This document shows, one piece after another, positions 1-42,302 of a stretch of 64,000 nt of DNA. The translations under genes were made by a program, and so were the position numbers. The notes below the pieces were generated by a model, which was not told where the DNA came from, searched no databases, and saw nothing but the letters and a program-made list of their open reading frames with translations. Position 1 is the first letter of the stretch. Every line of letters begins with the position of its first letter. The stretch is from Marsupella aquatica (lineage: Eukaryota > Plantae > Marchantiophyta). The DNA is taken from positions 15,120,699 to 15,184,698 of the forward strand of contig OZ316894.1 of NCBI GenBank assembly GCA_973895155.1. The letters are read 5' to 3'.

Positions 1-967
1 CCCTCGGCAAGTTACAATGCATGGTCACCCGCAAGAAGTCGATCATCTCTCCTATGTGCGGGTTGGTGCAGGTGTTCCGGAAGAAGCCATTCTTCGTTGA
101 TGGCCCGGGGAACGACCGGAACTCCTTGTCAGGCAAGGTCTTCCTGGTATCAACTTTGGTCTTATTGCCCATCGGCAAGCCAAACACTTCGGCAATCACC
201 TTGGGAGTAAGATAGAAATCCTTCCCATATATCCTCGTGCAATTGGTCTCGGGTTCCCATGACCCCACGAATTCTAATAGGTCTGACTCCGGTACCTCCG
301 GCTTCAGCCATGGTAATCTTACAAAGGCCTCCAAGCCGGATCCGGCCATGAAGCCTTGGTACTTCTTGGTCTGCATGGCCGTAAAGCATGCATCCTCCTC
401 CCGTGCAAAATGTAGTTGCACCTCCACCGGTAGGGTTGCCGCCCAGCCCTTCTAGGTGTCATCCCTGGTTGGAATGGCCTTGATGGGATCGACCTCCTCC
501 TCTTCGGCTTCTCCCTGCCTCCTGCTCTGCTGCTCGGCTGGCTTCTTTGGTGCCGCCGACCTCGTTCTTTTTGCCGGGGTGGCTTCATCGTTGACGGCTC
601 CCTTCCTCTTCATCTCTGCTGCCGTGGAGGTCTCTCCTAGCACCGTTGCCCGGGTCCACCTTTCCGTGCTACCCTTTAATTCCCAGTGTATGTCGTTGCA
701 GTTCTTGATGGCCTCTCGGATGCCGACGACGCTGTCTTTGCAAAACAGAAGATCGTCGAGTTGATTGGAAGTAGGCGTCCACAAGAACTCGTCCTTGATG
801 AGTTCGCCTCCTAAGAAAGCCGTCTTCTGCAGCTCCCACAATCGAGCGAGCTCCTGCCGTTCTCGAGCTGCCCTTTCTGACTCCTCGTCCTCGTAAGTCT
901 TGATGTACTCAGTTGCCCGTTCGAACAGGCATCCCCAGAAATGTGCCGCTTGATTGACGTTGCTCAT
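1..967 (-). pseudogene. LTR-encoded ORF, 3' LTR copy, with a premature TGG>TAG stop at 452-454
   Basis: Same N-terminus (MSNVNQAAHFWG...) as 9300-11828; the stop replaces the Trp in DDTW. Confidence 0.9.
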
Positions 968-1339
968 ACCCTCCTTAGGTTGATCGTCGGTATCTACTCT
1001 CTCCCGAGTGCTTGCCTAAGCAGCTGACAGTAGTTGGCCTCCCGTAGTCGTCTGCCTAGTTCATGCTCGCAAATGAGCCACCATCTCCTGCAAGCGCTCC
1101 TTACCCCTCTCCTCTGCCGGTCCTTCTTCCCGTTGATCCTTCCTAGCCGCCGACGCTTAACGCGCCCTAACCCTAATCGGGTTTTCACCCTCAGCCTTAC
1201 CTCCGGCCTCTGCCTGGGTTCCATGGTTGCCCCTAATTGTTTATATTTTCCTTGTTTTGTCACTATACTAAGGTGTTCCTAGGGTGCCTTCCTGCTTTAC
1301 CCACTTAACCGGCCGAGTGATTCCTGTCTAGGCATCACA
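1..1339 (-). repeat. 3' LTR of family A element (partial)
   Basis: Starts TGTGATGCCTAG at 1339, directly after the PPT. About 4 substitutions relative to the 5' LTR, counted by eye. Confidence 0.95.
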
Positions 1340-4300
1340 TAGCTCCCCACTTAATTGTGAAGCGTCCTCGCGAACAACTTCATCTTCGTCCATATAGTAT
1401 TTCTTGAGGCGGTCATAATGGATGCGAACTGGATATACTTCTCCCGTAATGTTGGCCAATTGCACGGAGCCATTGGGGAACATCATGGTTACTCTAAAGG
1501 GTCCTAACCAGCGAGTGTAAAGCTTTCCTGGAAACCTACTATACCTACTGTCATAAAGTAGCACAAGATCACCGGTATGAATACTAACTACTTTTAACCT
1601 TTTATCATACTGCTGCTTCATGATATTCTGTCTATATTCTACTCTCTCGGCTGAAATCATTCTCGCTTCCTCTAAAGCTTCTAACCTATATTCTCGCTCC
1701 TTTAGGCTCTCCTCCGCTGAGGCTCTTTCCTCAATTGTAACTTGAAATGTCGGTATCTCAAGTTGCATGGGTACCAGGGCTTCTTGTCCAAAGGTTAAGA
1801 AGAAGGGTGTATGACCGGTAGTGGATTTATAGGCCAGATTGTAAGCAAAAACAACAGCAAACAATTTATCATCCCAATCGAGTTTGTTCTGAGCTACTGT
1901 TTTGTTCAATATCTTTCCTATGATTCCGTTTGCTCGTTCTGTCAACCCGTTTGCCTTTGGATGGTAGGGAGTAGTAGGCCTATGTTTAACTAAATACTGC
2001 TCATTTAAACGACTAATTATATCATTCAAAAAATGGGTTCCTCTATCACTAACTAATTCTAGGGGTGCTCCATACCTGGTGAAGATCTGCTCATACATGA
2101 ATCTAGCCGTAGTAATTGCATCATCCTTCGTTGTTGGTCTGGCCTCTACCCATTTAGTTGCATAATCCGTAGCCAGGATTATGTACTTGTTCCGTCGAGG
2201 GTGGGTCAGTGGTTTCAGAGGTCCAATGTAATCAATACCCCACTTCTCGAATGGTGCCAGAGGTAGAATAGGGTGCAGTGGATGCCTGGTGGACGCCCTT
2301 GGTCCTCCCGCTCGTTGACAAGGATCGCATTGTTTGATAAACTGATAGACATCCTTGTGCAAGGTGGGCCACCAGTAACCGGCATTTAATATTTTCTTAG
2401 ACGTGGTTACTGGGGCAAAATGTCCTCCGGCCTCCTCTCCATGCATGGCCCGTAGGACTCGTTTTACCTCTCTCTTTTCCAAACACCTTTGAATCGTGCC
2501 GTTGATTCCATGCTTGTGCAGTATGCCTTTAATGCACTGATACTGTCTGACCTTCCGCACAAAGACTGCGGCTTGCTCTCGGCTTAATCCTGGCTGTAAT
2601 CTGGAAGTGCTGAGAAATTGTAAAATCTCAGGGTACCATGTACCAGCTATTTCCACAACGAATAGCTCCTCGTCGGGGAATCGATCATCGATGCAATCCG
2701 TGGCAGGTTTACCTGTGATCCTTGAAAAGAAGTCGGCATTGGCATGTAACTTTCCCGGCTTGATCCTCAGCTCATAGTCAAACTCCTGTAATAGCAAAAT
2801 CCATCTTGCTACTCTGCCTGTAAGGTCCGGCTTATTGACTAGGTACTTCAAACTTTCATGATCAGTATGAAAGATTACCTTGTACCCTAGTAAATAATGC
2901 CTAAACTTTTTACAAGAATAAATGACTCCTAATGCTTCTCTTTCCGTGGTAGAGTAGTTCCGTTCGGCATCGGCAAGCTGACGGCTTGCGAAGTATATGG
3001 GATGGTCCCTTCCTTTCTCATCCAACTGACTTAGTACTGAGCCAATACAGAAGCCCGAGACATCTACAAAAACATGAAAATCTTTGTTCCAGTCCGGTGC
3101 TATCATGACTGGGGCCTCTACTAACATCTGCTTCAATTCTACCACCGCTGTGACTCGTTCGGGTGTGGGTTCGAAGTCTGCTCCTGCCTTGAGCATATTG
3201 GTTAATGGTAAAGCCAGCTTGGCAAAATCCTTGATGAACCGGCGATAGTAACCAATGCATCCCAAGAAGGATCTTACATCCTTTATGTTCTTAGGTTGCA
3301 TGATATCTAGCCATACTGCTAGCTTACCTTTGTCAATCTCAATGCCCTTCCTTGATACCTTGTGACCTAGTAGCACCCCCTCGGTTACTGCAAAAAAACA
3401 TTTATCTGGGTGTAACTTGAGACCCACCTCCCTACATCTCATGAAGGTTTTCCTGAGGTATTTAGCATGTTTCGATGCCTTCCCGAATACTGCAAAGTCA
3501 TCAATGAAGATTTCCATGAACTTTCTCAAGTAATCATGAAAAATGTTCACCATTAATCGTTGGAACATAGCTGGTGCGTTGCAGAGTCCAAACGGCATAC
3601 GATTGAAGACATAGATCCCCCATTCCGTGATGAAGGCCGTCTTGATTTGGTCTTCCTGCCGAATCCTGATTTGGTTATAACCAGAGTATCCATCCATGAA
3701 TGAATATAGTTCATGACTGGCTACCATGTCTAGTACCATATCAGTAAACGGTAAAGGAAAATGGTCTTTTAATGTTGCTTCATTCAGCTTCCTGTAATCC
3801 TGACAAACCCGGATCTTGGGTTTACCATCGGGTCCAGCTTTCTTGGGAACTATCACAATTGGAGACACCCAGTCTGAATGCAGGACTGGAGTGATGAATC
3901 CAGCTTCCACTAGTTTGTCGATTTCTGTTTTGACCAGCAGGGAGTACTTCGGGTTCATCCTTCGAATTGGTTGTCGAAATGATTTGGCTCCTAACATGAG
4001 ATCAATTCGATGTTCCCCTAGTGTTGGATCTACGCCCTTTAGATCTTGGTGACTCCATGCAAACACATCCTGAAATTCAATCAATAAGTCACTGATCTCT
4101 TTCTCGAGCTCAGGTGCTAGGTTTCTCCCTAAGTTCAGTTCTCTTCCCTCTCCTAAGTCGAGCTTCCGATATTGCCGTGCTTGGATCATATTAATCTGCT
4201 TCTTCAAATTCGGGTCCAGTTCGGCTTCCAGTCTCTCTAATCTCATACCTCCATAAACTGGGATCTCGGCTGGACTAGCCGAGTCGGTCCCTTCCTTGGT

Positions 4301-4594: not shown

Positions 4595-4661
4595 TTAGCC
4601 GTTTCATCCAATTGGTCTACATCCTTAACTTCCTCCGGAATTGCAGCTAAAAAGGTGGATT

Positions 4662-7493
4662 CTATTGTAAAGCAGTCCTCGACCTCTTCGTCTTCTTCTT
4701 CCAAGTCACCTTCCGTTGGTTCTTGCCATAATCCGCTGGGGGTACCTCTGGTCCAAAGACACCTTCTTCGGTTAGGTTAGTGAAGCATTCTAACCAACGT
4801 ACTTCATCGGCTGACTCCAGTCCACTATCGTACCCATCTACTTCCCTTATGCTTTTCCTACGGTCATCCTTAGTGTCCCAGGATACCGTGATAGAGGGGG
4901 TCCCGAAAGTGAACTGCTTTTTACCCCAATCTTCTATTACCTCGGCTAGGTACAGCCATGGCCTACCAATCAATAGCCGGAATGACGTAGGATTTACCGG
5001 CTTCATTACTACATAGTTAATGCTAAAGAAGATACCTCCTATCTCTGTCTTGATGCCGGTTAACACTCCCGTCGGAATGACCTGATATCCATTGGCCATG
5101 TTCAACACTCTTCCAGTCATCTCCGGTGTTAGACCCCACCTTCTTGCTGTTGAATCAATCATAATACATACCCCTGATCCTCCATCGATGGGTACCCGTA
5201 GTAATAATTCTCCTTGAATCATTAATGGTAATGCTGGGGCTCCTTGATCTTCTTCTATCATTAGTACGTCGGATCTGGTTGCTACCTTGGGTAATCTCGG
5301 CTTGCCGAGAATAGCCTTCCTTAATTGCTTCCGGAAGTACGGGCTATTTTTCAATAGTTGACCTACTGTTGCCGAGACTCTAGATTCTAGTACATCTTTA
5401 GCCAGGTCATAGGGAACAATCGGCTTCTCTTCTGGTGGTGTTTCCGTCTTGGATTCGGCCAGTTTTGCCACGCTAGTCTCCACAGCTGTTGGGTCTTCCG
5501 AAGCAAACAATGCTTTTGCTCGTTTTACATCCTTGGCAATGGCTTCGGTATTCTCCAGGGTTTCTAATTCTCTTAGTTGTTCCTTAACACTAGCCGTAAC
5601 AGAGGGGTAGAACAACTTAGGATGATCTCGATTGAAGTCGCTATCTTGTGAAGGATTGGTTTCACTGGTGGGCTCATGGCTTACCTGTATTGCCGGAGCC
5701 CTCCCTTCTCCTTCTGTTGATGTTGACGAAGAGTCGATCCTTTCCTCCGTAACCTTCCCTTTATTTTTGGCCAGCCCATCCCACCTTTCCTTCCTTCTGG
5801 TAGATCGAGTAGAGACCCGGTAGCAATCATGATCTAAATCCTCCTCTGAGAAGGTTGATAGGGCTTCGGCCTCATCATCAGATGGTACGAACTCTGCCTC
5901 GGCATCCTCTTGCCATCCTAGTTTGATGTGGTTGATTTGAACTCCTCCGGGGGTAGTACCTGGCGGTAAGATCTTGATCGGCAAAAGCTTATGATTTGCG
6001 GCCAGGCCTGCCAACCAAGTAGGACATTGCCCTAGCATATGACCTTCCTGTCGGCATCCCATACATAGCTGAGCTGGTTGTCCATCACCCTGTTTGCGTG
6101 CATTCGGGCATTCTCTAGCAAAATGGCCAGGTTGACCACAATTATAGCACGCCGCAAATCTTTGCACATTCGGCCTAGGAGGTACTGACGGGTTCTGAAT
6201 AATCCGAGGATACATCTCTCCTGGATTGTTCCTTAATCCTGACCACAGAGATGCAGGTCTGTTGGATAGGTCTCGTGCTCCACTCTCACTGATGCCGAAA
6301 ACACTATCAGCGGCATCTCCCAAAAAGTACTCTACTTCTCCCTGACATGGTCTGATCTCGGCCACATGCCGAACATGATTAGTATTAAGCTTAGGACAAG
6401 CATCTTTATGGTGTCCGGTTTTATAACATAAGGCACACCATACAGAGCTATCCTCCTGTACTACCTTCTTCTTTGGTTTTACCTCTGCAATGATAGCCTT
6501 AAGTTGCTCGGTAAGGGCTACGATGTTATCTGGTGGCTTAGCCTCCATCTTGACTTTCGTCTTCCCTCTCCTTCTGCCCTTCCTTTTCCTAGTTTTTTCT
6601 TCTTCAGAACTAGAAGATGACTCACTCTTGCTACTCCCACTATCCGAGCTTGACCTATCACTTCTAGACTTCTTGGAATGTTTCTTCTTCTTATCTTTTT
6701 TCTTATGGGGTGATCCCTCCTCTGATGAGGAACTCTCAGACTTAAGCTGTTTCTTCCGGCTTGTGATATCTGCATTAATGTATAATTGAATATCCTTAAT
6801 TGCTTCGGCTAAGGTCTCCGGGTTCTCCTTCCTAATTGCAAAACTCATCTTCTGTGGCAAAGCATTCACCAACCATTGAAGTTGCATACCTTCAGATGCA
6901 TTGGTCTTTGTACGTCTTACCAATTTCTGAAAGCGTTGCAAGAACTTCCTGAAGGATTTGTTCTCCTTGAACCGAAGTTGTCCCAACTTCAGTACTGCTA
7001 GTTCTGAAGTTCCAATGGGTCGAAACTCCTTAACAAAGAGTGTTTTGAAGATATCCCAGATGGCTTGATCTTCCACATCTAATGCTCTGTACCAAGGCCT
7101 AGCCTCACCCTTGAACAGGTCGGGAAGAATCTGCATCTTGATGGCCGATTCTCCATTTGCTGCAGCGGTTCCCTCGAAATCATCCAACCATTCGTCCGGA
7201 TCCTCATCTCCTCTCCCATGAAATGCCTTGTAATGTATGCGCGACCGCTGGCTCAATCTGGTCCCTGGCCTCTCGTCTGGCCGTGCCTCTGGTTCCCCCA
7301 TGTCGGTTGGAGACTCACTTCTCCTTACCGACTCTTCTTCTGGTATGTCTTCTTCGACGCCACTTCCAGTTTCGGAGCTACCAGCTCTTTCTGCCCCTCT
7401 CAGTCGCTGTGTATCATGCCACCCGGCGAGCTGCTGCAGTCGAGCTCTCTCCCGTTGAATCACTCTTTCTTCCCTCGGCGTAAGGTCAGTCAT
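4662..7493 (-). CDS. gag: Gag (three CCHC knuckles) plus aspartic protease
   Basis: Capsid-like FHGRGDEDPDEWL; knuckles CALCYKTGHHKDAC, CYNCGQPGHFAREC, CMGCRQEGHMLGQC; protease IDGGSG...LLIGRPWL. Confidence 0.92.
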   Translation of the reverse strand: MTDLTPREERVIQRERARLQQLAGWHDTQRLRGAERAGSSETGSGVEEDIPEEESVRRSESPTDMGEPEARPDERPGTRLSQRSRIHYKAFHGRGDEDPDEWLDDFEGTAAANGESAIKMQILPDLFKGEARPWYRALDVEDQAIWDIFKTLFVKEFRPIGTSELAVLKLGQLRFKENKSFRKFLQRFQKLVRRTKTNASEGMQLQWLVNALPQKMSFAIRKENPETLAEAIKDIQLYINADITSRKKQLKSESSSSEEGSPHKKKDKKKKHSKKSRSDRSSSDSGSSKSESSSSSEEEKTRKRKGRRRGKTKVKMEAKPPDNIVALTEQLKAIIAEVKPKKKVVQEDSSVWCALCYKTGHHKDACPKLNTNHVRHVAEIRPCQGEVEYFLGDAADSVFGISESGARDLSNRPASLWSGLRNNPGEMYPRIIQNPSVPPRPNVQRFAACYNCGQPGHFARECPNARKQGDGQPAQLCMGCRQEGHMLGQCPTWLAGLAANHKLLPIKILPPGTTPGGVQINHIKLGWQEDAEAEFVPSDDEAEALSTFSEEDLDHDCYRVSTRSTRRKERWDGLAKNKGKVTEERIDSSSTSTEGEGRAPAIQVSHEPTSETNPSQDSDFNRDHPKLFYPSVTASVKEQLRELETLENTEAIAKDVKRAKALFASEDPTAVETSVAKLAESKTETPPEEKPIVPYDLAKDVLESRVSATVGQLLKNSPYFRKQLRKAILGKPRLPKVATRSDVLMIEEDQGAPALPLMIQGELLLRVPIDGGSGVCIMIDSTARRWGLTPEMTGRVLNMANGYQVIPTGVLTGIKTEIGGIFFSINYVVMKPVNPTSFRLLIGRPWLYLAEVIEDWGKKQFTFGTPSITVSWDTKDDRRKSIREVDGYDSGLESADEVRWLECFTNLTEEGVFGPEVPPADYGKNQRKVTWKKKTKRSRTALQ

Positions 7494-7539: not shown

Positions 7540-7558
7540 CCCCCTCCATCTAGCGCCA
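7540..7558 (-). promoter_or_regulatory. Primer binding site, probably tRNA-Asn
   Basis: Minus strand TGGCGCTAGATGGAGGGG a few nt after the 5' LTR end. It matches the plant tRNA-Asn(GUU) 3' end as I recall it, with one mismatch. Confidence 0.75.
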
Positions 7559-8483
7559 AAAATGTGGTGCGTCCCATGGCTCCCTAACCCCAAGAAACCC
7601 CCCAGCTCAAGCCGATTCCCGCAGGTTTCATGCTTGGCGAGGCCGTTTCCGCGGCTTAGCGGCATGGGACGCTGCTAACCTTCTACTACTACTATTAACA
7701 TTTTACACACATATACTGGACAGATCCTTCATCGGGTCATGAGATACGTAGCCGGCCTAATATAGGCCTTCCCTTGTCTTCCCCTGTCTTCCCCTCCGTC
7801 TTGTTAGGTATGTTTGGATTCCGCCGCCGGAATGATCCCCAATAGGCTTGGTTAAGCCGCTAAGACCTCTCTCAGCTCGACACATCCAACTCTCACTCCC
7901 CTGCTTACTTTCCTTCCTTCTGTTGATGTGGGCACTCTTCACACAAGTTAATGCGACACACAAATAGCAAATTGACTCATTCTGACTGAGTCATACCATG
8001 CACTTGCCATACAAACAGTACATCTCATACACAAGTTCTGCGAACTAAGCCGTGAGGCCAACTCTATTCAGCTCTTAGGCATGAGGAAACATGAATATAC
8101 ACAAGGGTCATTGTATGACTAACCGAGAGCTTCTCGTACTACTTGATCCCAGCCCGGCTGGTGCAAACTAAAAACTTGCTAAAGAAGAGGCCCTGAGCTC
8201 CCCGCTGCCCAGGTACTTATCCTGGTAGTGGATCCGCCATTCTTTGCATCGTAAGCCTAATCTACTTAACAGTAATCTACTTGCCCGAATCTACCTATGT
8301 ACAGCAAGGCAGGAGCACAAGTGTTGCTCCTACCAGTGGGACCGCAATCCCACTAAGCTAAGTGTCAGGGCCGCTCCTGGTTCTGATCCTAATCCTAAAC
8401 GTGGAGATCCGTGCCCGCCCTGCCCACTCACGCCTCCTCCCTCCACGTCCGCCCTCCCTAAAAGGAACGGCACCCTTGCACCG

Positions 8484-11400
8484 TCACGACACCGGTGGTG
8501 GATCCTCAATGGACGCCCCCAATACTTCCTCCTCAGCCACTGCCGTTGGCCCGCCTACTGACAGATTACCTGCCCTTGACCGAGTCAACTCTCCATCGGC
8601 CTGACTGGGTCCACCTTCGGCTTCGGCCTCGACACCGGCCTCGGTAATACCCACGGCTTCGGCTTCAGCCACTCCCACGGCTTCGGCCTCCCCTTCCCCT
8701 AGGGTAGTTGGATCCTTAGCCGTGACCCTGTCTGGGGTCGGTGCTGGGTCTACCTCCTTGATCACCACGGCCTGTGAAGTCGTATTACTCCTTGACCCTG
8801 AAGGTTTCCGCTTCTTCTTCGTTGGTGGCTCGGCAGCTGGTCCCTTCCCCTTCCCACTTACCTCCGGCACTGGTGCAGGTGGCGCGGCTTGTCCTTCGGC
8901 AATTACCACCCCTGGTAACTGGTTTGTCCCAACAGGAGATGGACCTGCTACAGCTAAGCATTTAAATACTGCGGCTTGTTTCTTCAGCCACTCTGTTTGG
9001 TTGTCGGCCCGCCGCTGTAGGTTCTCCATCTTCCTCGTGATTTCCTCCAACTCCTCTTGGGTTTCATCCAGGTCCTTACGTGCCCCCTCCAGCTCGTTTT
9101 TGGCCTCCTCCTGCTCCCTGTGGGCTTCCTCCAATTCCTTCTTCAAGGTAGCCCTCTCCTCCTGGGTTGCTCTTAGCTCCTTGTCGAGCTCTGCAATGAT
9201 GACAGACTCCATCTGGTTCATCTTGGCGTAAGTCTGTTCGAGCATCTCGTCCTTCTCCCTTAGGTCGGCCTTGAAGCTGGCCGTCAGGGACGCAAGCTCC
9301 TACTGCAGCGCCATAATCCCTTGATAGGATTTCCCTAACTCGACCTCCTTCTGCTCAAGGGCTCCGCGGATTTTCTCGAGCTCCCCTTTCAACGCCCATT
9401 CCTTTCTTTGGGTCTCCGCCATGGCCCGGCTGTTGGCTGTTATGTGGGCCTCCTCTGTATTCTTTAGCTCTTGCTTCCACTTTTCCCTTTCTTTGATCGT
9501 GTCGGCCAACTCTTCCTGCGTCTGAGTCAGTTTATCCTTGATATTCTGATTATCAGCCTGCGCGGCGTCCAACTGCCCCTGCATGATGTTCAGCTCATGT
9601 CGTTTAATCCGCAGTTCATCTTGGGCTTTCTTGGCCGCCCTTAGATCTTCAATCTCGGCTTCCATCCTCCTAAGCCGCCGAATGACCTCGTCCTTCTTGC
9701 TTCTCTCTAAAGCCACCGCTTCTTCTAATTGGTGCTTCTCCAACTGCTCCCTATGGAAAAAGGGTCCTACCTCCAACTCCTCTCCAAAGATGCCGAGCGC
9801 AAGTTCCCCACACATCTCACCATACTCCATGGCTCTATTCTTAGCGTAGGTGGAGTAAGTAGAAGTGATCGGCATCGCCCATCGTGGCCTCTGCTCCCAA
9901 GCCGTCCTGCGGATCTCTTCAATCGTGGCTAGAGGTTTGCTTCCTTTTTCGGCTAGCCGCCTGATGTCCTCCGGCCAATCTCCTCCTGGTAAATCCTTTT
10001 CCTTAGCCAGGGCGGCCTCTTCCTCTTGCTTGATTCGCTCCTGAAATTCCTGCACCGTCTGTTTTATGCCGTCGAAGCTCGGGGGAGCAACATCTGGTGG
10101 GGGAGACTCAGGGCTACTCTGCTGGTTGGGGTCCCCTCGCACTACCCTTGGAAGTGTGGGGACAAACCGGCCACAGGTCCTTACTCCTGGAACGTAATGG
10201 TCCGACCCATAGCCGGAATTATCATGGCTGCAGTCCTCCACTGCCTCCTCTACCTCTTGGATTTCCGGCTTCTCCCTCTCCTCTTCCTCGGTAGGAGCTT
10301 CAGGCAATTCTGCCTCAGATTCGGAGCTTGAGGTTCCCACGTACATTCGAACACCTGGCTTGGATTCCGGCCTGATTCTCTCCTTGTCTCCAGCAAAGGG
10401 GTTTTCTCTTGTGAGCCGGTGTAGGCCTACCTCTGTAGTAGTGTCCTGCATTGTTGCCGTTGCCGTTGTTGTTGTTGCCGATGCCGATTTCTTTTCTTTC
10501 TCCAGTAGTTTCAGCAGACTCTGCATGCCTGGTTGCTGCATCGGCAAGTCTTCCTTCCTGGGCCTAAACACCTGCTCGATCGTAGGACTAACAGGTGGTT
10601 GAGGCTTCTCAGCCAACGGCCTCGGCGTTGGAGCTTCCTCGGGTGCCCTTACCTGCAGGGGAAGTACCGGGGCAAAAGTCTGACCTCTGGCATACCGGCA
10701 CAACAGTGGCATGTGATAGCCAAGCCGCGACACGCTCCCCATGCCGATTACCTGCTGCTCCTCCTTTAAGATCTTCTTCAATTGGTTGAGGAGGTACCCG
10801 TTGTAGTCCCGGCTTGGGTCTGGCCTTTCTGCCAGATAGACCTGTGCTTTGCCGATCTTTGCCCTCGGCAAGTTACAATGCATGGTCACCCGCAAGAAGT
10901 CGATCATCTCTCCTATGTGCGGGTTGGTGCAGGTGTTCCGGAAGAAGCCATTCTTCGTTGATGGCCCGGGGAACGACCGGAACTCCTTGTCAGGCAAGGT
11001 CTTCCTGGTATCAACTTTGGTCTTATTGCCCATCGGCAAGCCAAACACTTCGGCAATCACCTTGGGAGTAAGATAGAAATCCTTCCCATATATCCTCGTG
11101 CAATTGGTCTCGGGTTCCCATGACCCCACGAATTCTAATAGGTCTGACTCCGGTACCTCCGGCTTCAGCCATGGTAATCTTACAAAGGCCTCCAAGCCGG
11201 ATCCGGCCATGAAGCCTTGGTACTTCTTGGTCTGCATGGCCGTAAAGCATGCATCCTCCTCCCGTGCAAAATGTAGTTGCACCTCCACCGGTAGGGTTGC
11301 CGCCCAGCCCTTCCAGGTGTCATCCCTGGTTGGAATGGCCTTGATGGGATCGACCTCCTCCTCTTCGGCTTCTCCCTGCCTCCTGCTCTGCTGCTCGGCT

Positions 11401-11828
11401 GGCTTCTTTGGTGCCGCCGACCTCGTTCTTTTTGCCGGGGTGGCTTCATCGTTGACGGCTCCCTTCCTCTTCATCTCTGCTGCCGTGGAGGTCTCTCCTA
11501 GCACCGTTGCCCGGGTCCACCTTTCCGTGCTACCCTTTAATTCCCAGTGTATGTCGTTGCAGTTCTTGATGGCCTCTCGGATGCCGACGACGCTGTCTTT
11601 GCAAAACAGAAGATCGTCGAGTTGATTGGAAGTAGGCGTCCACAGGAACTCGTCCTTGATGAGTTCGCCTCCTAAGAAAGCCGTCTTCTGCAGCTCCCAC
11701 AATCGAGCGAGCTCCTGCCGTTCTCGAGCTGCCCTTTCTGACTCCTCGTCCTCGTAAGTCTTGATGTACTCAGTTGCCCGTTCGAACAGGCATCCCCAGA
11801 AATGTGCCGCTTGATTGACGTTGCTCAT
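8484..11828 (-). CDS. LTR-encoded ~1,114-aa protein: plant retrotransposon extra-ORF-like N-terminal domain plus long coiled coil; one in-frame stop at 9300-9302
   Basis: ORFs 9300-11828 and 8484-9245 share a frame. The intervening TAG is CAG in the copies near 45.5 kb and 52.7 kb. Motif LEAFVRLPW...EFVGSW...LTPKVIAEVFGLP, E/K-rich heptad region, KKKRK basic patch. Confidence 0.85.
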
Positions 11829-12097
11829 ACCCTCCTTAGGTTGATCGTCGGTATCTACTCTCTCCCGAGTGCTTGCCTAAGCAGCTGACAGTAGTTGGCC
11901 TCCCGTAGTCGTCTGCCTAGTTCGTGCTCGCAAATGAGCCACCATCTCCTGCAAGCGCTCCTTACCCCTCTCCTCTGCCGGTCCTTCTTCCCGTTGATCC
12001 TTCCTAGCCGCCGACGCTTAACGCGCCCTAACCCTAATCGGGTTTTCACCCTCAGCCTTACCTCCGGCCTCTGCCCGGGTTCCATGGTTGCCCCTAA

Positions 12098-12110
12098 TTG
12101 TTTATATTTT
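12098..12110 (-). promoter_or_regulatory. Candidate TATA box for the LTR ORF
   Basis: Minus strand AAAATATAAACAA about 90 nt inside the LTR 5' end, conserved in the other copies (e.g. 42393-42405). A telo-box-like TAGGGTTAGGG lies downstream. Confidence 0.4.
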
Positions 12111-12254
12111 CCTTGTTTTGTCACTATACTAAGGTGTTCCTAGGGTGCCTTCCTGCTTTACCCACTTAACCGGCCGAGTGATTCCTGTCTAGGCATCACA
12201 ATTTGGTCTGAATCAAAATTTGCATGACTTTGGTTTTAATCCATTTTTTTCAGT

Positions 12255-16063: not shown

Positions 16064-16203
16064 TGTTGTGAGACAAGGTTTTTCATCATAGTAATAGATA
16101 CTTCACTCCATTAAGGTATGGCTTTATATAGCCATTGGGTTACAGCATGTAAGGTTAAAGGTAACCTTATTCTAGGGTTAAAGGTAAACTATGGTTTACA
16201 ACA
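16064..16203 (-). repeat. 3' LTR of Bianca-type element
   Basis: TGTTGT...ACAACA, direct repeat of 24453-24592. Confidence 0.95.
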
Positions 16204-24437: not shown

Positions 24438-24452
24438 CTCGTGCTGATAACG
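24438..24452 (-). promoter_or_regulatory. Bianca-type PBS (internal tRNAi-Met half)
   Basis: CGTTATCAGCACGAG directly after the 5' LTR. Confidence 0.85.
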
Positions 24453-24592
24453 TGTTGTGAGACAAGGTTTTTCATCATAGTAATAGATACTTCACTCCAT
24501 TTAGGTATGGCTTTATATAGCCATTGGGTTACATCATGTAAGGTTAAAGGTAACCTTATTCTAGGGTTAAGGGTAAACTATGGTTTACAACA
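24453..24592 (-). repeat. 5' LTR of Bianca-type element
   Basis: Direct repeat of 16064-16203. Confidence 0.95.
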
Positions 24593-26537: not shown

Positions 26538-27225
26538 TGTCACGCCGAAAGCTTCATCCTTACACAAATTTTAGCTTGGATGGGCATAATCTTCATTAGT
26601 TTTGAGAGTTCGGGCAAGGAGGGATGTGCAAACTGAACCTTACTCCCGTAATCTAGCGCTAAGTGCGCCTAGTCCTACTAACATAAATATCATGGGTATA
26701 GTTTTTGTTCCACAGCCGGAATGTACCTTAAGTCGATAGCTGGATTGACCCCGGCTTAAGGACTTCTCAGCCTTTGTGCTGTCCGCCTCCGATGATACGG
26801 GTATCCAACCCGGGCTTGCAACCACTATCCGCAGCCAACACCCCGTGCCCAGCTCGGATAATGCGTTCGGCCAAGCATTCTCTACCCGTATACGAGATTC
26901 ATACATGCAACTGAATTCACAATAATTCAATCTTGGTTTACACAAAGGAAATAGTGGGAAAAGACTTTACTTCAAAATCCATCATACACATATACACGGT
27001 TGACTCAACATCTCTTGAGTGAACAGGCCCAACGGCAGACAGGCGTACACTACAACGGAGCCTGGCTTCGCACTTGCCCAACGAGCTTAGTCATACCCTC
27101 CCTCCTTGATGCTCTTTTACTCACAAAGGTCAGGAATCCCCCACATCCTGCGAATACCCGGTTCTGAAACTAAAATCCCCCTGCCTCTATTGGGGGGTGC
27201 ACTAAATACTAAGAGCCGGGGACGC
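26538..27225 (-). mobile_element. 3' part of a family B LTR
   Basis: Diverged reverse complement of 29540-30215; terminus TGTCACG at 26538. Confidence 0.75.
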
Positions 27226-27234
27226 CACAGTAGG

Positions 27235-27427
27235 GAACACAATTAGGGTTAGGGCGTGCTAAGTGCCGGTAGCTAGGGGTAACCAACGGGAAGGAAGACC
27301 AGGCAAGGGGGGGTAAGGACCGATCGCAAGGAATGGCAGCTCATTTGCAAGCATGAACTAAGTAGACAATTATGTGAAGCCAACTACTATTAGCTGCTTA
27401 GGCAAGCACTCTGGGTGGGAGCAGATA
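27235..27427 (+). mobile_element. Fragment of family A LTR 5' region
   Basis: Matches ~42467-42657 (TTAGGGTTAGGGC..TAAGTGCCGG...GCAGATACC). Confidence 0.8.
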
Positions 27428-27470
27428 CCCTAAACCCTAAAACCCTAAACCCTAAACCCTAAACCCTAAA
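27428..27470 (+). repeat. Interstitial plant telomeric repeat (CCCTAAA)6
   Basis: Six units, one of them CCCTAAAA, at a junction between TE fragments. Confidence 0.95.
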
Positions 27471-27700
27471 CTCCGTCTACAAGAACCATCTTGATGGTAC
27501 AATTATTAATTTCGATCGAGATGTCCAGCGCTCCAAGGTCCTCGCATATCATGTTGCAGTCCGCGATCCCAACTCGGGGTAGTCTCCTCCTTCGGCGACC
27601 CATGAGCAACTCCCTTAGTTGCCGTCTGTACTGTGGGTTGTTCTGCAGCAGTTGCCCCACCGTCGCTGTAACCGGGCAACTCTTCACGTCTCGAAGACTC
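27471..27700 (-). pseudogene. Gypsy gag-protease fragment
   Basis: VTATVGQLLQNNPQYRRQLR...VLVDG is homologous to VSATVGQLLKNSPYFRKQLR...VPIDGG in 4662-7493. Confidence 0.8.
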
Positions 27701-30215
27701 AGGGATTCGAGCACCTCGCCTCCCTCCCCTGGAACACTTGCAGGTACTACGGGGAGGACATGACGGAGTTCATCAGGAACTATGACGACGCGCATCAACA
27801 TACTCGGCTGCGGGGAAGGAGTATGTCCCTCACGGAAGAATGGCTCAGGATGATCTTCGGGTTACCCAAAGGTGACCATCGAGTCGAATCACGGGCTCCC
27901 GGGGGCAAGGGAGCCAAGTACCAATCTTCAAGTTTTCCCTCAGAGGGAGCAGTGGACAACGGGTTCGTGATGAAGACCTGCCTCATCCCCGAGATAGCTG
28001 AGCGACTGGAGTTCCAGAGGTACGCCCTCCACATGATGGAACCCCGGGGGGAGATCTCCGCCGCCCAGGTTATCCAGGTCAAGAACTATCGACCTAGGAG
28101 GTGGGCGTCGTACTTCACTAAGAAATTCCATGAAGAGATGGAGCGGCGAAGGAAGACGCTGTACATTGGCGGGAAGGCTTATTTCGCTAGCCACATCGAG
28201 ATCATTCTTGAGTGGTACGCCCGGTTTGATCAACGAACCCTTCCCCATGTCAACGTTACAAAGCTGGTCCCAGCTAGGTGGGTTTTCCCGGCCTTGGAGA
28301 GACGGCCCCAACCCGAGGCCCGAAGTCCAGCGGACATGCCAGCTTCACCCACCCCACCTCCACAAGTAGCTGTAGTCGTAACCAAGGAGGTACCGGATGG
28401 GTCGGGTGTCGCAACCGTTGATGCGATCCAACAGGCCGGGCTAAGTACAGAAGTCGGTACGGCGGAGGTCTTACCCGAGCTCGGTTCTCCCAAAGACCCA
28501 CCGGTGGCTATTCCGGAGAACCGGACATTGCTATAGGAGGACGCTCCAGCCCCTTCCAACGTTACGTCCCCAGGGCTGGACGTCACTGCCCCGGCCCCCA
28601 CGCGTGTTGACGTCTGCCCGTGCCCAACTCCGGACAGGCACAACCTGGACCACCCGGAACTCTTCGTACCGGGTACATTTCTGAACGGGCTTCTGGGAGA
28701 TTTCTCTCATTAGATTGCCCGGGATACCGGGGAGTTCATGGCCCGGAAGGTAGCCTGTTTCTTCAATCAGGAGTTGGTTGCCGCAATAAAGGCAGGTCGG
28801 GCCCAGTCAGAGGCCCTTCAGAGGATAGAGCGGTACCGGGTGGAGTCCGTGTACCTAAAGAATGAAGTTGCAGCTCAAGAGGCTAAGCTTCGGCAACTAC
28901 GACCCAAGGTTGTAGCCGCCGATGAGTTGTTAGCAAAGGCGCACGCTCTTATCGCCCTAGCCAAACAGGCCGAGATTACACGACTCCGGAACCAGATTGA
29001 CAGTTTGAAGAATCAAACTGTCACCTGGCAGAAAGACCTGGAGGAGGCCAAGGAACGGGCCCAACGGGACACGGCGGAGATAGCCACGCTGCAGGCCGAG
29101 GTGGCGCGGCTCCAAACCAAGGCCGAGAAGCAGGACCAGCTTGCGGGTAAACTGACAAGTGACGCCCAGCAGTTGGAGGAGGCTTGTCAGGAGGCAGCAG
29201 AGGAGACGGACGCGGCGAGGCGAGAGAACGAATCTCTGCTGGACCAGGTCCAGCTCCTCAAGGCGGACAATGACAGGCTTCGAAGGCAGCGGGATGGCCG
29301 CTCCCATTCAGGCGGCTCTGGCAAGCGTGCCAGGCATTAGCGGCGGAGTAGGAATAGATTAGGATTAGGACTAGCTTAGTCAGGCTCTTGGGATAGGCAC
29401 CTGCCTTCGGTACAGCATTGCTGCCATGCTGTCCAGCCTGCTTAGATTAGGATCTTCTAATAAGACACAGCCGTTTCCGGCCTGACTGTCAGCTTAGTTA
29501 AGACCTTAGTCAGTGAATCTTCGGCGAGAGGACACCCCGTCCCTCGGCCCTTAGTATTTAGTGCACCCCTCGGTAGAGGCAGGGGGGGTTTTTAGTTGCA
29601 GAGGTGGGCGTCCGCGGTATGTGCTGGGAGTCCCGACCTCTGGGAATGAAAGAGTACCAAGGGGAGGGGGTAGGACTAAGCTCGTCGGGCGAGTGCGGAG
29701 CCGGGCTCCATTGTAGTGTGCACCCTCGGCCTTGAACCTGTTCATTCCGGGGCTGTCGGGCTCCCTTTGTAGTAAAATCCTTTCCCATCATTTTCCTTCA
29801 TGTAAATCGAGATTGTATGCATGTGCGCGTGTATGTGTGTGGGTTTCTCGTATATGGGTGGCAGTGCCAGGCCGAACGCACTACCCAAGACGTGCACAGG
29901 GTGCAGCCTGCGGGTAAGTGGTTGCGAGCACGGGTTAAGGACCTGTATCATCGAATCCGGATCAAAGGCGGATAGCACGAAGGCTTAGAAGCCCTTAAGC
30001 CGGGGTCGATCCTGCTATCGACTAAGGTACGTTCCAGCGGCGGAACACAAACCATACCTAGGAGGTGTCCGTATTTAGCAGTATGCGCACTTAGCGCTAG
30101 TTTACGAGAATAAGGTGCATTACGTGCTTCCCTTCCTGCCCGAACCCTCAAATTTATGAGGGATGTGCCCGTCTAAGCTGAAGTCTGAGTTAAGGCCGCA
30201 GCCAATGACGTGACA
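27700..30215 (+). mobile_element. Family B LTR-like unit 1 (5' truncated) with decayed extra ORF ending at 29340
   Basis: ORF GFEHLASLPW...EFIRNYD...LTEEWLRMIFGLP plus coiled coil resembles the family A LTR ORF; the unit ends GACGTGACA. Confidence 0.75.
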
Positions 30216-32718
30216 AGCACCTTGCCTCTCTCCCCTGGAACACCTACATATACTACGGGAAGGACATGACGGAGTTTGTCAAGAATTATGATGACGTCCA
30301 TCAGCATACTTGGCTACGGGGGAGGAATATGTCCCTCACAGAGGAGCGGCTTAGGATGATCTTTGGGCTACCCGAGGATGATCACCGAGTCAAATCATGG
30401 GCTCCCAGGGGCAAGGGAGCCAAGTACCAATCCTTGAGTTTTCCCTCCGAGAGGTCAATGGACAACGGGTTCGTGATGAGGACCTGCCTCATCCCCGAGA
30501 TAGCTGAGCGGCTAGAGTTCCAGAGATACGCCCTCCAGATGATGGAACCCCAGGGCGAGATCTCTGCTGCCCAGGTTATCCAAGTCGAGAACTAACGACC
30601 TAGGAAGTGGGCTTCGTACTTCGCTAAGAAGTTCCATGAAGAGATGGAGCGGCAAAGGAAGTCACTATACATCGGCGGGAAGGCGTATTTTGCAAGCCAC
30701 ATCGAGATCATTCTCGAGTGGTATGCCCAATTTGATCAACGAACCCTTCACCGGGTCAACGTAACTAAGTTGGTCCCGACTAAGTAGATCTTCCCGACCT
30801 TGGAGAGATGGCCTCAACCCGAGGCCCAAAGTCTGGCGGCAACACAGGCCTCACCCATCCAACCTCCACATGTAGCGATAGCCGTGGCCAAAGAAGTACC
30901 GGAAGAGGCAGTGATCGCAACCTTAGATGCGATCAACCAGGCCGGGCCTGGTGCAGAAGTTGGGGCGGTGGAGGCCTTGCCCGAGCCCAAGGGTCCAGAA
31001 GACCCATCAGTGGCTATTCCAGAGGACAGCCCAATGGTGGAGGAGGACACTCCAGCCCCTTCCAACACTACATCCCCAAGGCTAGATATCACTACCCCGG
31101 CTCCCACGCGAAACGTCTGCCCGTGCCCAACTCCAAACGAGCATAACCTGGACCACCCGGAACTCTTCGTACCGGATACATTTCTAAATGGGCTTTTGGG
31201 AGATTTCTCCCAACAGATAGCCCGGGATACCGGGGAGTTCATGGCTCGGAAGGTAGCCTACTTCTTCAATCAGGAGTTGGTTACCGCAGTAAAGGCAGGT
31301 CCGGCTCAGTCGGAGGCCCTTCAACGGATAGAGCGGTACCGGGTTGAGTCCGTGTACCTAAAGGATGAAGTTGCAGCTCAAGAGGCTGAGCTTTTGCAAC
31401 TACAACCCAAGGTTGCAGCCGCCGATGAGTTGTTAGCAAATGCGCATGCCCTTACCGCCTTAGCCAAACAGCCCAAAGCCGGGAAGGAGGCCGAGATTGC
31501 ACGGCTCCGGATCCAGGTTGACAGTTTGAAGAACCAAACTGTCATCTGGCAGAAAGACCTAGAGGAGGCCGAAGAGCAAGCCCAACATGACACTACGAAG
31601 ATTGCCACCCTACAGGCCAAAGTGGCACGGCTTCAAGCCAAAGCCAAGAAACAGACCCAGGTGGTGGACTAGCTGACGAGCAACGCCCAGCAACTAGAAG
31701 AGGCATGCCAGGAGGCAGCTGAGGAGACGGACGCGGCAAAGCAAGAAAACAAATCTCTGTTGGACCAAGTCCTGCTCCTCAAGGCGGACAACGACTCCCA
31801 CTCGAACGGCTCTGGCAAGCGCACCAGACATTAGCGGAGGGTTAGGCTTAGAATAGACTTAGGAGTAGCTAAAACAGGCTGGTAGGACAAGTGCCGGCCA
31901 GAAGATAAAGGCGCTGACACATTAGCCAGCCTATGTAGAATAGGTTAGACTAATAGGACAAGCAGGCACCAGCTTAGCAAGGATATAAGTTAGCGTAGAT
32001 TCGGGCACGAGGCCAGGCCAGTCCTCAGCCCTTAGTATTTAGCGGCCCCCCAGTAGAGGTTAGGGGAGGGGGATTTTAGACTCAGAGGTTGGCCATTCAC
32101 CAGTACGCACGTGGAGTCCCGAACTTGGTGAAGTACCGGAGTGCCAAGGGGAGGGTATACAACTAAGCTTGCTGGGCGAGTGCGGAGCCGGGCTCCGTTG
32201 TAGTGTATACTCCTCGGCCTTGGGCCCGTTCGTTCACGAGGTGTCGGGTCAACCAATCGTAAAGTGTATGATCATAAATGAATGAAATCCTTTCTCCTTA
32301 ATTCCTTCATGTAAATCGAGATTTCTGTTATGTATGAATGCATGTATGAGTCTTGTGTGCAAGAATCAACGTCGGGCCAAACACGTTATGCCAACCGTGC
32401 ACGGGGTGCCGAATACGGGTACGGGGTTGCGAGCCCGGGTTGAGCCCTTGTACTAATGGATCCGGATCAAAGGCGGTAACACGAAGGCTTAGAAGTCCGT
32501 GAGCCGGGGTCGACCCAGTGTCGACTAAGGTACGTTCCGGCGGCGGAACACAAACTATACCTAGGAGGTGTTTGTACATAACAGTAAGCACACTTAGCGC
32601 TAGTTTACGTGAGTTAGGAGCATTTGGTGCGTCCCTCCCTGCCCGAACCCTCATATTTATGAAGGATATGTCTGTCTAAGCCAAAGCCCGGGTTAAGGCC
32701 TAGGCTGACGACGTGAGA
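30216..32718 (+). mobile_element. Family B LTR-like unit 2 (diverged, in tandem) with decayed ORF ending at ~31834
   Basis: Colinear with unit 1; ends GACGTGAGA. Confidence 0.75.
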
Positions 32719-41843: not shown

Positions 41844-42302
41844 GCACTTGGCCTTTGATGTAGAATTCCCTTTTTGGTGTTTTTCTTTTATTTGTAGAAT
41901 TTTTGGATGTGTAGTATTGATCCGATGCTAGTGATTTCTTCAATGATAGGCGTTTGGATTGGTTTTTGGAGGAGAGATTCCATCTTCGGAAAGAAATCGA
42001 GGATCATTTTCTTGTGACCCCTGAAAAGGGATTTGCGCTTCCTTGATATGCTGAAAAGACTGCAAAGGAGGTTGATGAAGCGCCCGCTGTTTTGACTTGG
42101 GAGGGGAAAGGTCTGCGGTCAGTGAGGGGTGCTCGGAAAGCCCTTTACTGCCCTCAGTTCATAGATGATGGGGCTGGTACTGTAGCACAGTATGTTGACA
42201 ATTTGGCTGAGGAGACTGATAGGGAGTCGAGTAGTGTGGTGCGTCCCATGGCTCCCTAAACCCCAGAAACCCCCCTTCACAAGCCGATTCCCGCAGGTTT
42301 CG

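What the first reader, a model, noticed from the sequence alone, without database searches (positions are those of the whole stretch)
7563..12200. Giant LTRs that carry a complete ~1,114-aa protein gene, so solo LTRs act as mobile gene cassettes
Seen: the LTR, bounded by TG...CA, PBS, PPT and a TSD-flanked solo copy at 42235-49969, is 4638 bp. About 72% of it is one sense-strand ORF (11828-8484), with a TATA-like box upstream. Five copies occur in this window, and the diverged copies largely keep the frame, including across many indels. Established: plant Athila/Tat/Ogre extra ORFs normally lie in the internal region; LTR-resident genes are known mainly from retroviruses (MMTV sag, HIV nef overlapping U3). 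Inference: each provirus carries two copies and every solo LTR keeps a promoter plus gene. The protein (extra-ORF-like domain, long coiled coil, KKKRK patch, no obvious TM helix) could be a nuclear anti-silencing or targeting factor acting in trans. Either U3 is ~4 kb with its own promoter, or the strong-stop cDNA is ~4.5 kb.
Basis: partly seen in the sequence, partly recalled or inferred. Interest (0 to 1): 0.85.

Follow-up and report, generated by a model that had tools for sequence, protein, structure and literature searches.

The report
Retrotransposon LTRs carrying a VANC-like gene
A jumping gene, likely from a liverwort, has 4.6-kb terminal repeats that each carry a conserved 1,114-codon gene in a normally non-coding part, and the protein is predicted to fold like a known transposon anti-silencing factor, so it would likely help the element escape being switched off.

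Summary
Mostly confirmed. A young Athila-like Ty3/Gypsy element has a 4,638-bp LTR (TG...CA, PBS, pre-LTR purine module, a second whole LTR, TSD-bounded ends); 72% of it is one sense gene. Corrections: this copy has a premature stop at codon 843, none of the five window copies is open end to end, and the 'solo' at 42235-49969 is a nested composite. The stop is private (96-99.5% of contig depth in four runs reads otherwise), and the gene is under purifying selection (dN/dS 0.18-0.35; 0.07-0.08 in residues 171-390). New here: that domain models confidently (pLDDT 88) and its only clear structural match is the DNA-bound anti-silencing protein VANC21 (Z 8.8, next 2.1). In 5 of 6 informative metagenome relatives an ORF also starts 500-770 bp inside the LTR; the sixth, outside that clade, has it in the internal region like Athila. 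So an Athila-type extra ORF likely moved into the LTR, probably U3, with its own promoter. Function, U3 versus R, and expression from solo LTRs are untested; solo LTRs are not mobile. Ten literature searches found no description.

The parts
7563..12200 (-). 5' LTR of the main element (copy A), 4,638 bp, TG...CA with an imperfect terminal inverted repeat
   Evidence: both ends shared with copies B and C
12101..12106 (-). TATA-like box 278 bp upstream of the ORF; unchanged in copies A, B and C while its surroundings differ by 17-22%
12026..12037 (-). Telo-box-like TTAGGGTTAGGG in the 5' non-coding part of the LTR, kept in A, B and C (the telo-box label is recalled)
8484..11828 (-). LTR-resident gene, 1,114 codons; premature stop at codon 843 (9302-9300) private to this copy
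10659..11336 (-). Globular domain (about residues 165-390), Transposase_32/ATHILA-ORF-like, predicted VANC21-like fold, dN/dS 0.07-0.08
8979..9758 (-). Long charged helical region (about residues 691-950), inferred coiled coil; dN/dS 0.08-0.25
   Evidence: (only sub-threshold coiled-coil Pfam hits)
8805..8819 (-). KKKRK basic patch, candidate nuclear localisation signal (inferred)
7563..8483 (-). 3' non-coding 921 bp of the LTR, strongly conserved (5-10% divergence against dS of about 0.4); inferred to hold the genomic promoter, R and U5; predicted hairpin over the LTR end
7541..7558 (-). Primer binding site starting TGGCGC, 4 nt after the LTR (tRNA-Asn assignment is recalled, not tested)
4662..7493 (-). 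gag-protease ORF, 943 aa
1328..4594 (-). pol frame (RT, RNase H with intact catalytic motifs, integrase; no extra RNase H or chromodomain hit); ends 12 nt inside the 3' LTR
1340..1375 (-). Conserved pre-LTR module ending in the polypurine tract; the same module is found in six metagenome relatives
1..1339 (-). Start of the 3' LTR (cut by the window edge) with the first 322 codons of the gene; stop at codon 172
42303..47267 (+). Copy B: whole LTR (4,965 bp) of a diverged subfamily, nested in C; gene broken by a 242-bp insertion and a 22-bp deletion
47268..49969 (-). Copy C, 5' part (LTR positions 1-2626); right TSD AGTAG at 49970-49974; three stops
42235..42302 (-). Copy C, last 68 bp of the LTR; left TSD AGTAG at 42230-42234
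51987..54437 (+). Copy D: 3' half of an LTR (from codon 609 to the CA end)
27220..32718 (+). Second, distant family: two head-to-tail pieces (to 30215 and 32718) with a homologous ORF (24% identity), a coiled-coil-like part and about 880 non-coding bp to an LTR-like end; LTR start not seen

Best explanation
This is an Athila-like Ty3/Gypsy retrotransposon, likely of a liverwort, whose 4.6-kb LTRs each contain a gene under purifying selection; the gene likely lies in U3 under its own promoter, and its product is predicted to be a VANC-fold DNA-binding protein that would likely bind short motifs in the element and counter its silencing. Shown: the LTR boundaries, the gene's position, selection on it, and the same order (purine module, TG, 500-770 bp, ORF) in five relatives. 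Inferred origin: the sense extra ORF that Athila-type elements carry between pol and the polypurine tract came to lie downstream of that tract together with its own TATA promoter, so reverse transcription now copies it into both LTRs. Inferred expression: an upstream TATA near the LTR start drives the gene's mRNA, while the conserved last 0.9 kb holds the genomic promoter, R and U5. Inferred protein action: the globular domain reads DNA, the coiled coil oligomerises it, and the basic patch takes it to the nucleus. Solo LTRs inherit the gene but decay like other copies.
For: LTR extent. Joints of other LTR positions to exactly 7563 and 1339 in contigs (table 5). Summed contig depth over 7813-10850 is 3.4 times (X1) and 3.6 times (X2) that over 1303-7378 (my arithmetic; the tool warns this is no copy number). 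Selection: dN/dS 0.23 (A-B, CI 0.19-0.28), 0.18 (A-C) and 0.35 (A-D); 0.07-0.08 in residues 171-390; shifted sense frames give 0.84-1.61. Stop at codon 843 is private in 4 of 4 runs. Fold: model pLDDT 87.9, pTM 0.84. VANC21-DNA complex 9LNK at Z 8.8, rmsd 4.1, 207 residues aligned, next hit Z 2.1 among 48,161 chains. Foldseek 9LNJ has TM 0.47, against at most 0.15 for the other listed rows. Family link: ESM Atlas neighbours are Transposase_32 and ATHILA clusters at 0.89-0.90; the domain profile hits the L005 ORF at E 2.5e-10, and that ORF hits Transposase_32 at E 2.5e-4 over 160 of 177 positions. Clade pattern: 5 of 6 loci with the module have it directly after pol with an ORF inside the LTR; L005 has it after the ORF. 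L005 lies outside the clade (100/99; AU p 0.0003 and 0.0002 against nesting it). L002/L003/L009 ORFs match the domain alignment at 96.4% probability, E 1.3e-9. A TATA-like word lies 106-311 bp before the ORF in A and all six relatives (in L003 only AATAAA), and L001 has a second one 151 bp before its LTR end. Motif build-up as in VANDALs: TCCGGA 27 times against 1.1 expected in L001 LTR non-coding DNA, and likewise in L002, L003 and L006. VANC targets are accumulated short motifs in non-coding DNA (PMC5735166, passages).
Against: The VANC21 match is middling: Z 8.8, 9% identity, Foldseek E 1.7. The tool notes that Z under about 8-13 can reflect a common arrangement and that a fold shows no function. 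The same fold is shared with the host silencing factor MAIN (PMC13547354, passages), so its direction of action is not fixed, and the ATHILA ORF has no assigned function (10.64898/2026.03.20.713144, passages). The window protein itself has no Pfam hit; only 1 of 58 alignment members hit Transposase_32, weakly (E 0.006). Motif build-up in the window's own LTR is modest: TTAGG 13 against 3.6 expected, background tiles 0-7, and the motif is better conserved than its flanks in only 1 of 3 comparisons. TCCGGA is also common in the relatives' coding DNA (4-8 per kb). Copy A has no clear second TATA box near its LTR end, so a long R is not excluded. No relative's whole LTR is on one contig; their ORF position rests on the module plus TG, and on matching inverted ends in 2 of 5. 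L005 also has a weaker purine run followed by TGT between pol and its ORF. With the shallow 4-row alignment the profile match to the relatives' ORFs was only 29%.
Confidence: 0.55

Rival explanations
1. Same LTR-resident gene, but inside a very long R. The single promoter is the TATA near the LTR start; RNAs ending at the 5' LTR's poly(A) site are the gene's mRNA, read-through gives the genomic RNA, and minus-strand strong-stop DNA is about 4.5 kb.
For: The only clean TATA box in copy A lies at LTR position 95. TG-rich stretches that resemble plant 3'-end signals lie 380-490 bp after the ORF stop (the reading is recalled knowledge). L001 has AATAAA 1,361 bp before its LTR end.
Against: L005, whose ORF is internal, has the same kind of TATA word 106 bp before the ORF, so this promoter type need not be the LTR promoter. 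L001 has a second TATA box 151 bp before the PBS. The last 0.9 kb is far more conserved than the region around the upstream TATA. gag would sit behind a 3.3-kb ORF.
Confidence: 0.25
2. The gene is real and LTR-resident, but the protein is not an anti-silencing factor. It is a chromatin or integration tether, a transcriptional regulator of the LTR, or a structural partner of the particle, using the old MAIN/PMD/ATHILA-type fold plus a coiled coil for another job.
For: The fold is shared by host MAIN and by VANC; ATHILA-domain proteins are predicted to oligomerise through coiled coils and have no assigned function. Four of the five LTR copies or fragments considered sit in or next to other LTR copies, which fits targeting. 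Motif enrichment in the window's LTR is weak.
Against: The one solved match is the DNA-bound part of VANC21, and relatives show strong short-motif build-up. Nested insertion is common in repeat-rich plant DNA without a dedicated factor (established knowledge).
Confidence: 0.35
3. One reading: solo LTRs are kept as working gene cassettes that supply the protein in trans.
For: The LTR holds a promoter-like region, the whole frame and 0.9 kb downstream. LTR depth exceeds twice the internal depth, so LTR-only copies appear to be common.
Against: All five window copies carry separate disabling lesions, including both LTRs of a provirus whose LTRs differ by only 0.3%. Selection measured between subfamilies is explained by the active lineage alone.
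Confidence: 0.2
4. Artefact of boundary calling: short LTRs with an internal ORF in a tandem array, or an assembly duplication.
For: The 3' LTR is cut at 1,339 bp by the window edge, and the 'solo' copy is a composite.
Against: No direct repeat over 20 bp inside the 4,638 bp. B is a whole diverged LTR from TG to CA. C carries both ends inside one TSD. The PBS follows the end and the purine module precedes the start. Relatives have the same order.
Confidence: 0.03

Closest known systems
Athila lineage Ty3/Gypsy elements and their ATHILA ORF-1 (PF03078) / Transposase_32 (PF20167) extra ORF
   Same: [quoted passage not shown]
   Different: In Athila the ORF lies between pol and the 3' LTR (PMC7264820, section read). 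Here it lies after the polypurine tract, so it is in both LTRs, and the 6.2-kb internal region is nearly all gag-pol. The RT groups with liverwort sequences, apart from the angiosperm proteins.
VANC21 of the VANDAL21 Mutator-like DNA transposon (PDB 9LNK/9LNJ), and the related host protein MAIN
   Same: Predicted fold over about 207 residues; globular domain plus coiled coil; short motifs accumulate in the non-coding DNA of relatives.
   Different: 9% identity; encoded by a retrotransposon LTR rather than a DNA transposon. PMC13547354 calls VANC dicot-specific, whereas this is a non-seed-plant lineage. No binding or demethylation has been shown here.
Retroviral genes in U3 (MMTV sag, HIV nef, foamy virus bel region) - recalled, not from a call
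   Same: A protein-coding frame inside the LTR, duplicated at each round of reverse transcription.
   Different: Those frames are under about 1.1 kb, mostly start upstream of or at the U3 edge and rely on spliced or internal-promoter RNAs (recalled). Here a 3.3-kb frame, its upstream region and 0.9 kb downstream all lie in the LTR, and there is no sequence relation.
Ogre/Tat elements with about 5-kb LTRs; Retand/Grande elements with antisense TRP28 ORFs
   Same: LTRs up to about 5 kb are known in non-chromoviruses. Grande gene23 has its own promoter and a nuclear product.
   Different: These have a second RNase H, and their extra ORFs are described as internal, often antisense; the long LTRs are not described as coding in the passages read.
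Tat Z1/Z2 'zero' elements of liverworts; Phygy and Selgy
   Same: Bryophyte non-chromoviruses without a second RNase H; Phygy and Selgy have an internal region almost filled by the polyprotein.
   Different: Tat elements have a degraded native RNase H core, whereas the catalytic motifs are intact here. Phygy and Selgy have 4-bp TSDs, tRNA-Trp/Ala PBS and no extra ORF.

Membership tests
Ty3/Gypsy LTR retrotransposon | gag, protease, RT, RNase H, integrase in that order between LTRs, with PBS and PPT | tested here: met
Athila lineage | No additional RNase H and no chromodomain | tested here: met
   Pfam scan of pol shows neither; native RNase H motifs intact
Athila lineage | 5-bp TSD and tRNA-Asp/Asn PBS | tested here: inconclusive
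   5-bp TSD on copy C. The PBS shares TGGCGC with the Athila PBS and relatives L001/L002 match TGGCGCCGTTGCC with one mismatch, but the tRNA for the window's PBS is recalled, not tested
Athila lineage | RT-RH clusters with reference Athila elements | tested here: inconclusive
   No REXdb references were available. The element groups with Calypogeia, Riccia and unnamed sequences, apart from angiosperm hits
Athila lineage | Extra ORF in the internal region between pol and PPT | tested here: not met
   The ORF lies downstream of the PPT, inside the LTR. It is therefore filed as Athila-like, not as Athila
Tat/Ogre/Retand | Additional RNase H, degraded native RNase H | tested here: not met
   definitions
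Phygy / Selgy | 4-bp TSD, tRNA-Trp or tRNA-Ala PBS, no extra ORF | tested here: not met
   5-bp TSD and an extra ORF; no Phygy reference was in the tree
Transposase_32 (PF20167) / ATHILA (PF03078) domain | Pfam profile score above the gathering cut-off | tested here: not met
   No hit for the window protein. The link is indirect: Atlas 0.89-0.90 and L005 ORF at E 2.5e-4, below the cut-off
VANC anti-silencing factors | VANC21-type fold | tested here: met
   Z 8.8, rmsd 4.1, 207 aligned, next Z 2.1; predicted model; middling score
VANC anti-silencing factors | Sequence family membership (encoded by VANDAL/MuDR elements) | tested here: not met
   Encoded in a retrotransposon LTR; no sequence hit in PDB chains, which include VANC21 entries of the period, at E up to 1
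VANC anti-silencing factors | Accumulated short target motifs in the element's non-coding DNA | tested here: inconclusive
   Strong in L001, L002, L003 and L006, different words in L009, modest in the window's LTR
VANC anti-silencing factors | Sequence-specific DNA binding and loss of methylation in trans | not testable with these tools
   needs EMSA/ChIP and methylomes
U3-encoded accessory gene (sag/nef type layout) | ORF lies upstream of the genomic RNA's start site (in U3) | not testable with these tools
   no RNA run was listed; only sequence hints

The most novel reading that the evidence does not exclude
A clade of bryophyte Gypsy elements has built a self-contained anti-silencing unit into its LTR: promoter, a VANC-fold DNA-binding gene and arrays of that protein's target motifs. 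Every provirus carries two such units, and young solo LTRs keep supplying the factor in trans, so deleting an element by LTR-LTR recombination does not remove its counter-defence. This would extend VANC-type anti-silencing from dicot DNA transposons to retrotransposons and give the long-unexplained ATHILA ORF a function.
Probability: 0.25. Interest if true: 0.88.

Novelty: new variant of a known kind. Interest (0 to 1): 0.72.

Why it matters
Plant LTRs are treated as non-coding, and reviews place extra ORFs in the internal region. A 3.3-kb selected gene inside the LTR, shared by relatives with only 59-65% RT identity, shows that reverse transcription tolerates and keeps such cargo, and that solo LTRs can carry whole genes; homologues are annotated as unnamed host proteins in Calypogeia fissa. 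The predicted likeness to VANC21 offers a concrete, testable function for the ATHILA/Transposase_32 class of extra ORFs, an open question in the papers read. The motif-rich relatives name candidate binding words such as TCCGGA.

Tried and rejected
No whole genome was held, so genome-wide copy counts, the rest of the 3' LTR and the main element's TSD could not be checked. A word-index protein search with residues 1-400 found nothing among 6,067 candidates of 463-1,474 aa; the full HMMER scan with a 4-row profile then found 56 proteins. Pfam gave no hit for residues 1-842 and only sub-threshold coiled-coil hits for the rest. PDB sequence search: 0 hits. Viral fold library: nothing at E <= 0.001. 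Atlas search of residues 1-125: no usable hit. Single-sequence model of the L005 domain failed (pLDDT 35) and was not used. The extra-ORF alignment was too variable for a locus scan, so RT was used instead. Viral contigs: no relative. No RNA holder was listed; this says nothing on expression. Of 14 metagenome loci, 7 end inside gag-pol and 1 (L014) is a broken distant copy without the module; these 8 were left out of the architecture count. L013, L014 and 13 other rows were left out of the second tree; the AU test groups were named after seeing the first tree. Idea that family 2 has a short 690-bp solo LTR at 26538-27229: rejected, because the apparent TG start is the junction with a family-1-like fragment and there is no TSD. 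Idea that a drop in divergence marks the U3/R border by template switching: not usable, because all three pairs drop together after the ORF stop, which fits constraint. The antisense frame that shares third positions with the ORF also gives a low dN/dS (0.21-0.43); this is expected from the overlap and no long ORF is listed there. Papers not held: the VANC21 structure paper and Sasaki 2022; they may already link this fold to retrotransposon ORFs. Supplements of the bioRxiv preprint were not seen, and Neumann's per-element table was not among the passages seen.


Full report
Observation. The minus strand holds a Ty3/Gypsy element: a repeat from 12200 to 7563, a PBS-like TGGCGC 4 nt after its CA end, gag-protease (7493-4662), pol (RT, RNase H, integrase; to 1328) and a second copy of the repeat from 1339 to the window edge. 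The two copies differ at 4 of 1,339 sites, so the insertion is young. The repeat is 4,638 bp and the frame 11828-8484 fills 72% of it. Because the 3' copy is cut, the LTR's full length needed other proof. Copy B (42303-47267) aligns from the first to the last base. Copy C has both ends inside the TSD AGTAG. The LTR has no internal direct repeat over 20 bp. Contigs of two public runs join other LTR positions to exactly 7563 or 1339, and their summed depth over the ORF part is about 3.4 and 3.6 times that over gag-pol (my arithmetic; the tool warns that depth is no copy number). The short-LTR rival is rejected.

Corrections. The gene is not open here: there is a stop at codon 843, and the 3' LTR copy has a different stop at codon 172. 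B has a 242-bp insertion and a 22-bp deletion, C has three stops and lacks LTR positions 2627-4570, and D is only the 3' half. The stop at 843 is private: 96, 98, 99 and 99.5% of contig depth in 4 of 4 runs reads another letter there (two studies). The 'solo LTR' at 42235-49969 is C interrupted by B; B has no clean TSD and is followed by TTTGGC, which may be the start of a PBS.

Selection. Pairwise dN/dS against A is 0.23 (B, CI 0.19-0.28), 0.18 (C) and 0.35 (D); 0.07-0.08 for residues 171-390, 0.08-0.25 for 691-950 and 0.57-0.78 for the tail. Shifted sense frames give 0.84-1.61. In the ORF 14 of 16 indel events keep the frame, against 6 of 32 multiples of three in non-coding LTR DNA (my count; B and C are about 96% alike and share events). 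The 921 bp after the stop differ by only 5-10%, less than synonymous sites (dS about 0.4) and less than the 5' non-coding part (17-18%), so they are dense in cis elements.

Host and lineage. The closest named RT relatives are from the liverwort Calypogeia fissa (68-70%), then Riccia (54-60%). Of the 12 extra-ORF homologues looked up, the 4 with an organism name are all C. fissa 'unnamed protein product'. The host is therefore likely a liverwort; it is not named by any search. There is no second RNase H or chromodomain and the RNase H motifs are intact. With a 5-bp TSD and a TGGCGC PBS this is Athila-like by the table in PMC6317226 (supplement 3, read whole), and it is not Tat, Phygy or Selgy. 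No reference set was on hand to place it formally.

Relatives. An RT scan of metagenome contigs gave 14 loci (hosts unknown). Six carry a conserved module of about 36 nt that ends in a purine run and TG, the same as before the window's 3' LTR. In five (L001, L002, L003, L006, L009; RT 59-65%) it follows pol directly and an ORF starts 660, 514, 574, 500 and 769 bp after the TG. In L001 and L002 that TG start is the inverted repeat of the 5' LTR end, which is followed by an Athila-type PBS. L001's LTR must exceed 2.26 kb. The L002/L003/L009 ORFs match the window's domain alignment (96.4%, E 1.3e-9; only 29% with the 4-row alignment); the L001 and L006 ORFs are cut after 69 and 63 codons and were not scored. 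In the sixth locus, L005 (RT 55%), a homologous ORF (E 2.5e-10; Transposase_32 E 2.5e-4) lies before the module, as in Athila, though a weaker purine run also precedes it. Rooted on angiosperm proteins, the window, Calypogeia and the five loci form a clade (100/99) that excludes L005 (AU p 0.0003 and 0.0002; groups named after the first tree). The LTR position is thus likely derived. The state in Riccia and Calypogeia is unknown because their DNA could not be fetched.

Protein. Residues 160-400, modelled with 58 sequences, gave pLDDT 87.9. Against 48,161 solved chains the one match above Z 5 is VANC21 bound to DNA (9LNK, Z 8.8, rmsd 4.1, 207 aligned, 9% identity; next 2.1). Foldseek gives the sister entry TM 0.47 at a non-significant E of 1.7. 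The Atlas places the domain near Transposase_32 and ATHILA clusters (0.89-0.90). VANC proteins bind short motifs that build up in the element's non-coding DNA and remove methylation in trans (PMC5735166, passages). VANC is structurally like host MAIN, and VANC and ATHILA-domain proteins are predicted to oligomerise by coiled coils (PMC13547354, passages). Relatives show such motif build-up: TCCGGA 27 against 1.1 expected in L001's LTR non-coding DNA, 16 against 0.8 in L003, 9 against 0.3 in L006, 7 against 0.4 in L002. It is also frequent in their coding DNA and nearly absent from L005. In the window's LTR the signal is modest (TTAGG 13 against 3.6; 23 background tiles 0-7).

Mechanism. Shown: position, selection, clade pattern. 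Inferred: the ORF and its promoter came to lie after the PPT, so plus-strand synthesis and the strand transfers copy them into both LTRs. A TATA-like word lies 106-311 bp before the ORF in all seven elements (only AATAAA in L003), including L005 where the ORF is internal; L001 has a second TATA 151 bp before its PBS. This favours a gene with its own promoter in U3 and the genomic promoter, R and U5 in the last 0.9 kb. Copy A lacks a clear second TATA, so a long R is not excluded. My odds: LTR-resident selected gene about 0.93; U3 about 0.65; DNA-binding nuclear factor about 0.75; anti-silencing specifically about 0.5; useful expression from solo LTRs about 0.2.

Novelty. PMC7264820 (section 3, parts 1-2 of 3) places extra ORFs in the internal region. 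[quoted passage not shown] Passages of PMC11963269, PMC12885004, PMC10508981, PMC13468544 and 10.64898/2026.03.20.713144 did not mention a gene inside LTRs; the last says the ATHILA ORF has no assigned function. Ten full-text searches (listings only unless named above) found no description of this layout in plants. Subscription papers, the VANC21 structure paper and Steinbauerova 2011 were not seen. Retroviral U3 genes (sag, nef) are recalled precedent. Unchecked notes of this scan report genes in LTRs of fungal and other Gypsy families, so the layout may recur; they are leads only.

Verdict. A real, selected gene inside giant LTRs, shared across a clade, with a predicted VANC-like fold: a new variant of a known kind, interest 0.72. 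The phrase 'mobile gene cassettes' is not supported.

Noticed in passing
window 27220-30215 and 30216-32718 (+), 26538-27224 (-): A second, distant family with a homologous ORF (24% identity) and about 880 non-coding bp to an LTR-like end. It shares a hairpin-like motif (TTCCGGCGGCGGAA) with the main family's LTR 3' part. Upstream lies a 210-bp piece 78-81% like the main LTR's 5' region, joined through (AAACCCT)n telomere-type repeats at about 27430-27470.
   Followed up: partly
L001, L002, L003, L006, L009 (whole loci): TCCGGA is enriched throughout these elements, 4-8 per kb even in gag-pol and up to 16-18 per kb in LTR non-coding DNA, and is nearly absent from L005 and the window element. 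L009's LTR is instead rich in ACGGAA and ACGCGT.
   Followed up: partly
window 1328-1375 (-): The pol frame runs through the purine module and ends 12 nt inside the 3' LTR; the internal region (6,223 bp) is almost all coding. Many RT relatives sit on contigs of about 6.0-6.3 kb, which fits the same compact internal region.
   Followed up: partly
window about 43550-43790 and 37093-37199: The 242-bp insertion in copy B shares 107 bp (98%) with the region just past the end of the LINE-like ORF at 37536-39962 and ends in short tandem repeats; it may be a 3' LINE fragment.
   Followed up: no
window 56358-59375: Near-perfect tandem duplication of 1.5 kb (99.9% over 1,511 bp); very recent or an assembly artefact.
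   Followed up: no
window 12276-15261 (+): Broken ORFs with a DUF7869 hit (E 1.7e-26) flank the 5' LTR; the main element seems to have inserted into another transposon.
   Followed up: no
window 19951-24592 (-) and 62978-64000 (+): Two Ty1/Copia-type elements. A 140-bp direct repeat (98%) at 16064-16203 and 24453-24592 may be the short LTRs of the first.
   Followed up: no
L005:3367-3410: A second purine run followed by TGT lies between pol and the ORF of the element whose main module is downstream; it could be a stepping stone to the LTR-resident layout.
   Followed up: no
L001:180-677 and L003:5440-5843: Tandem repeats of about 250-280 bp (74-81% alike) in the non-coding DNA after the ORF or in the LTR's 3' part, reminiscent of the motif-bearing tandem repeats of VANDAL elements.
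   Followed up: no
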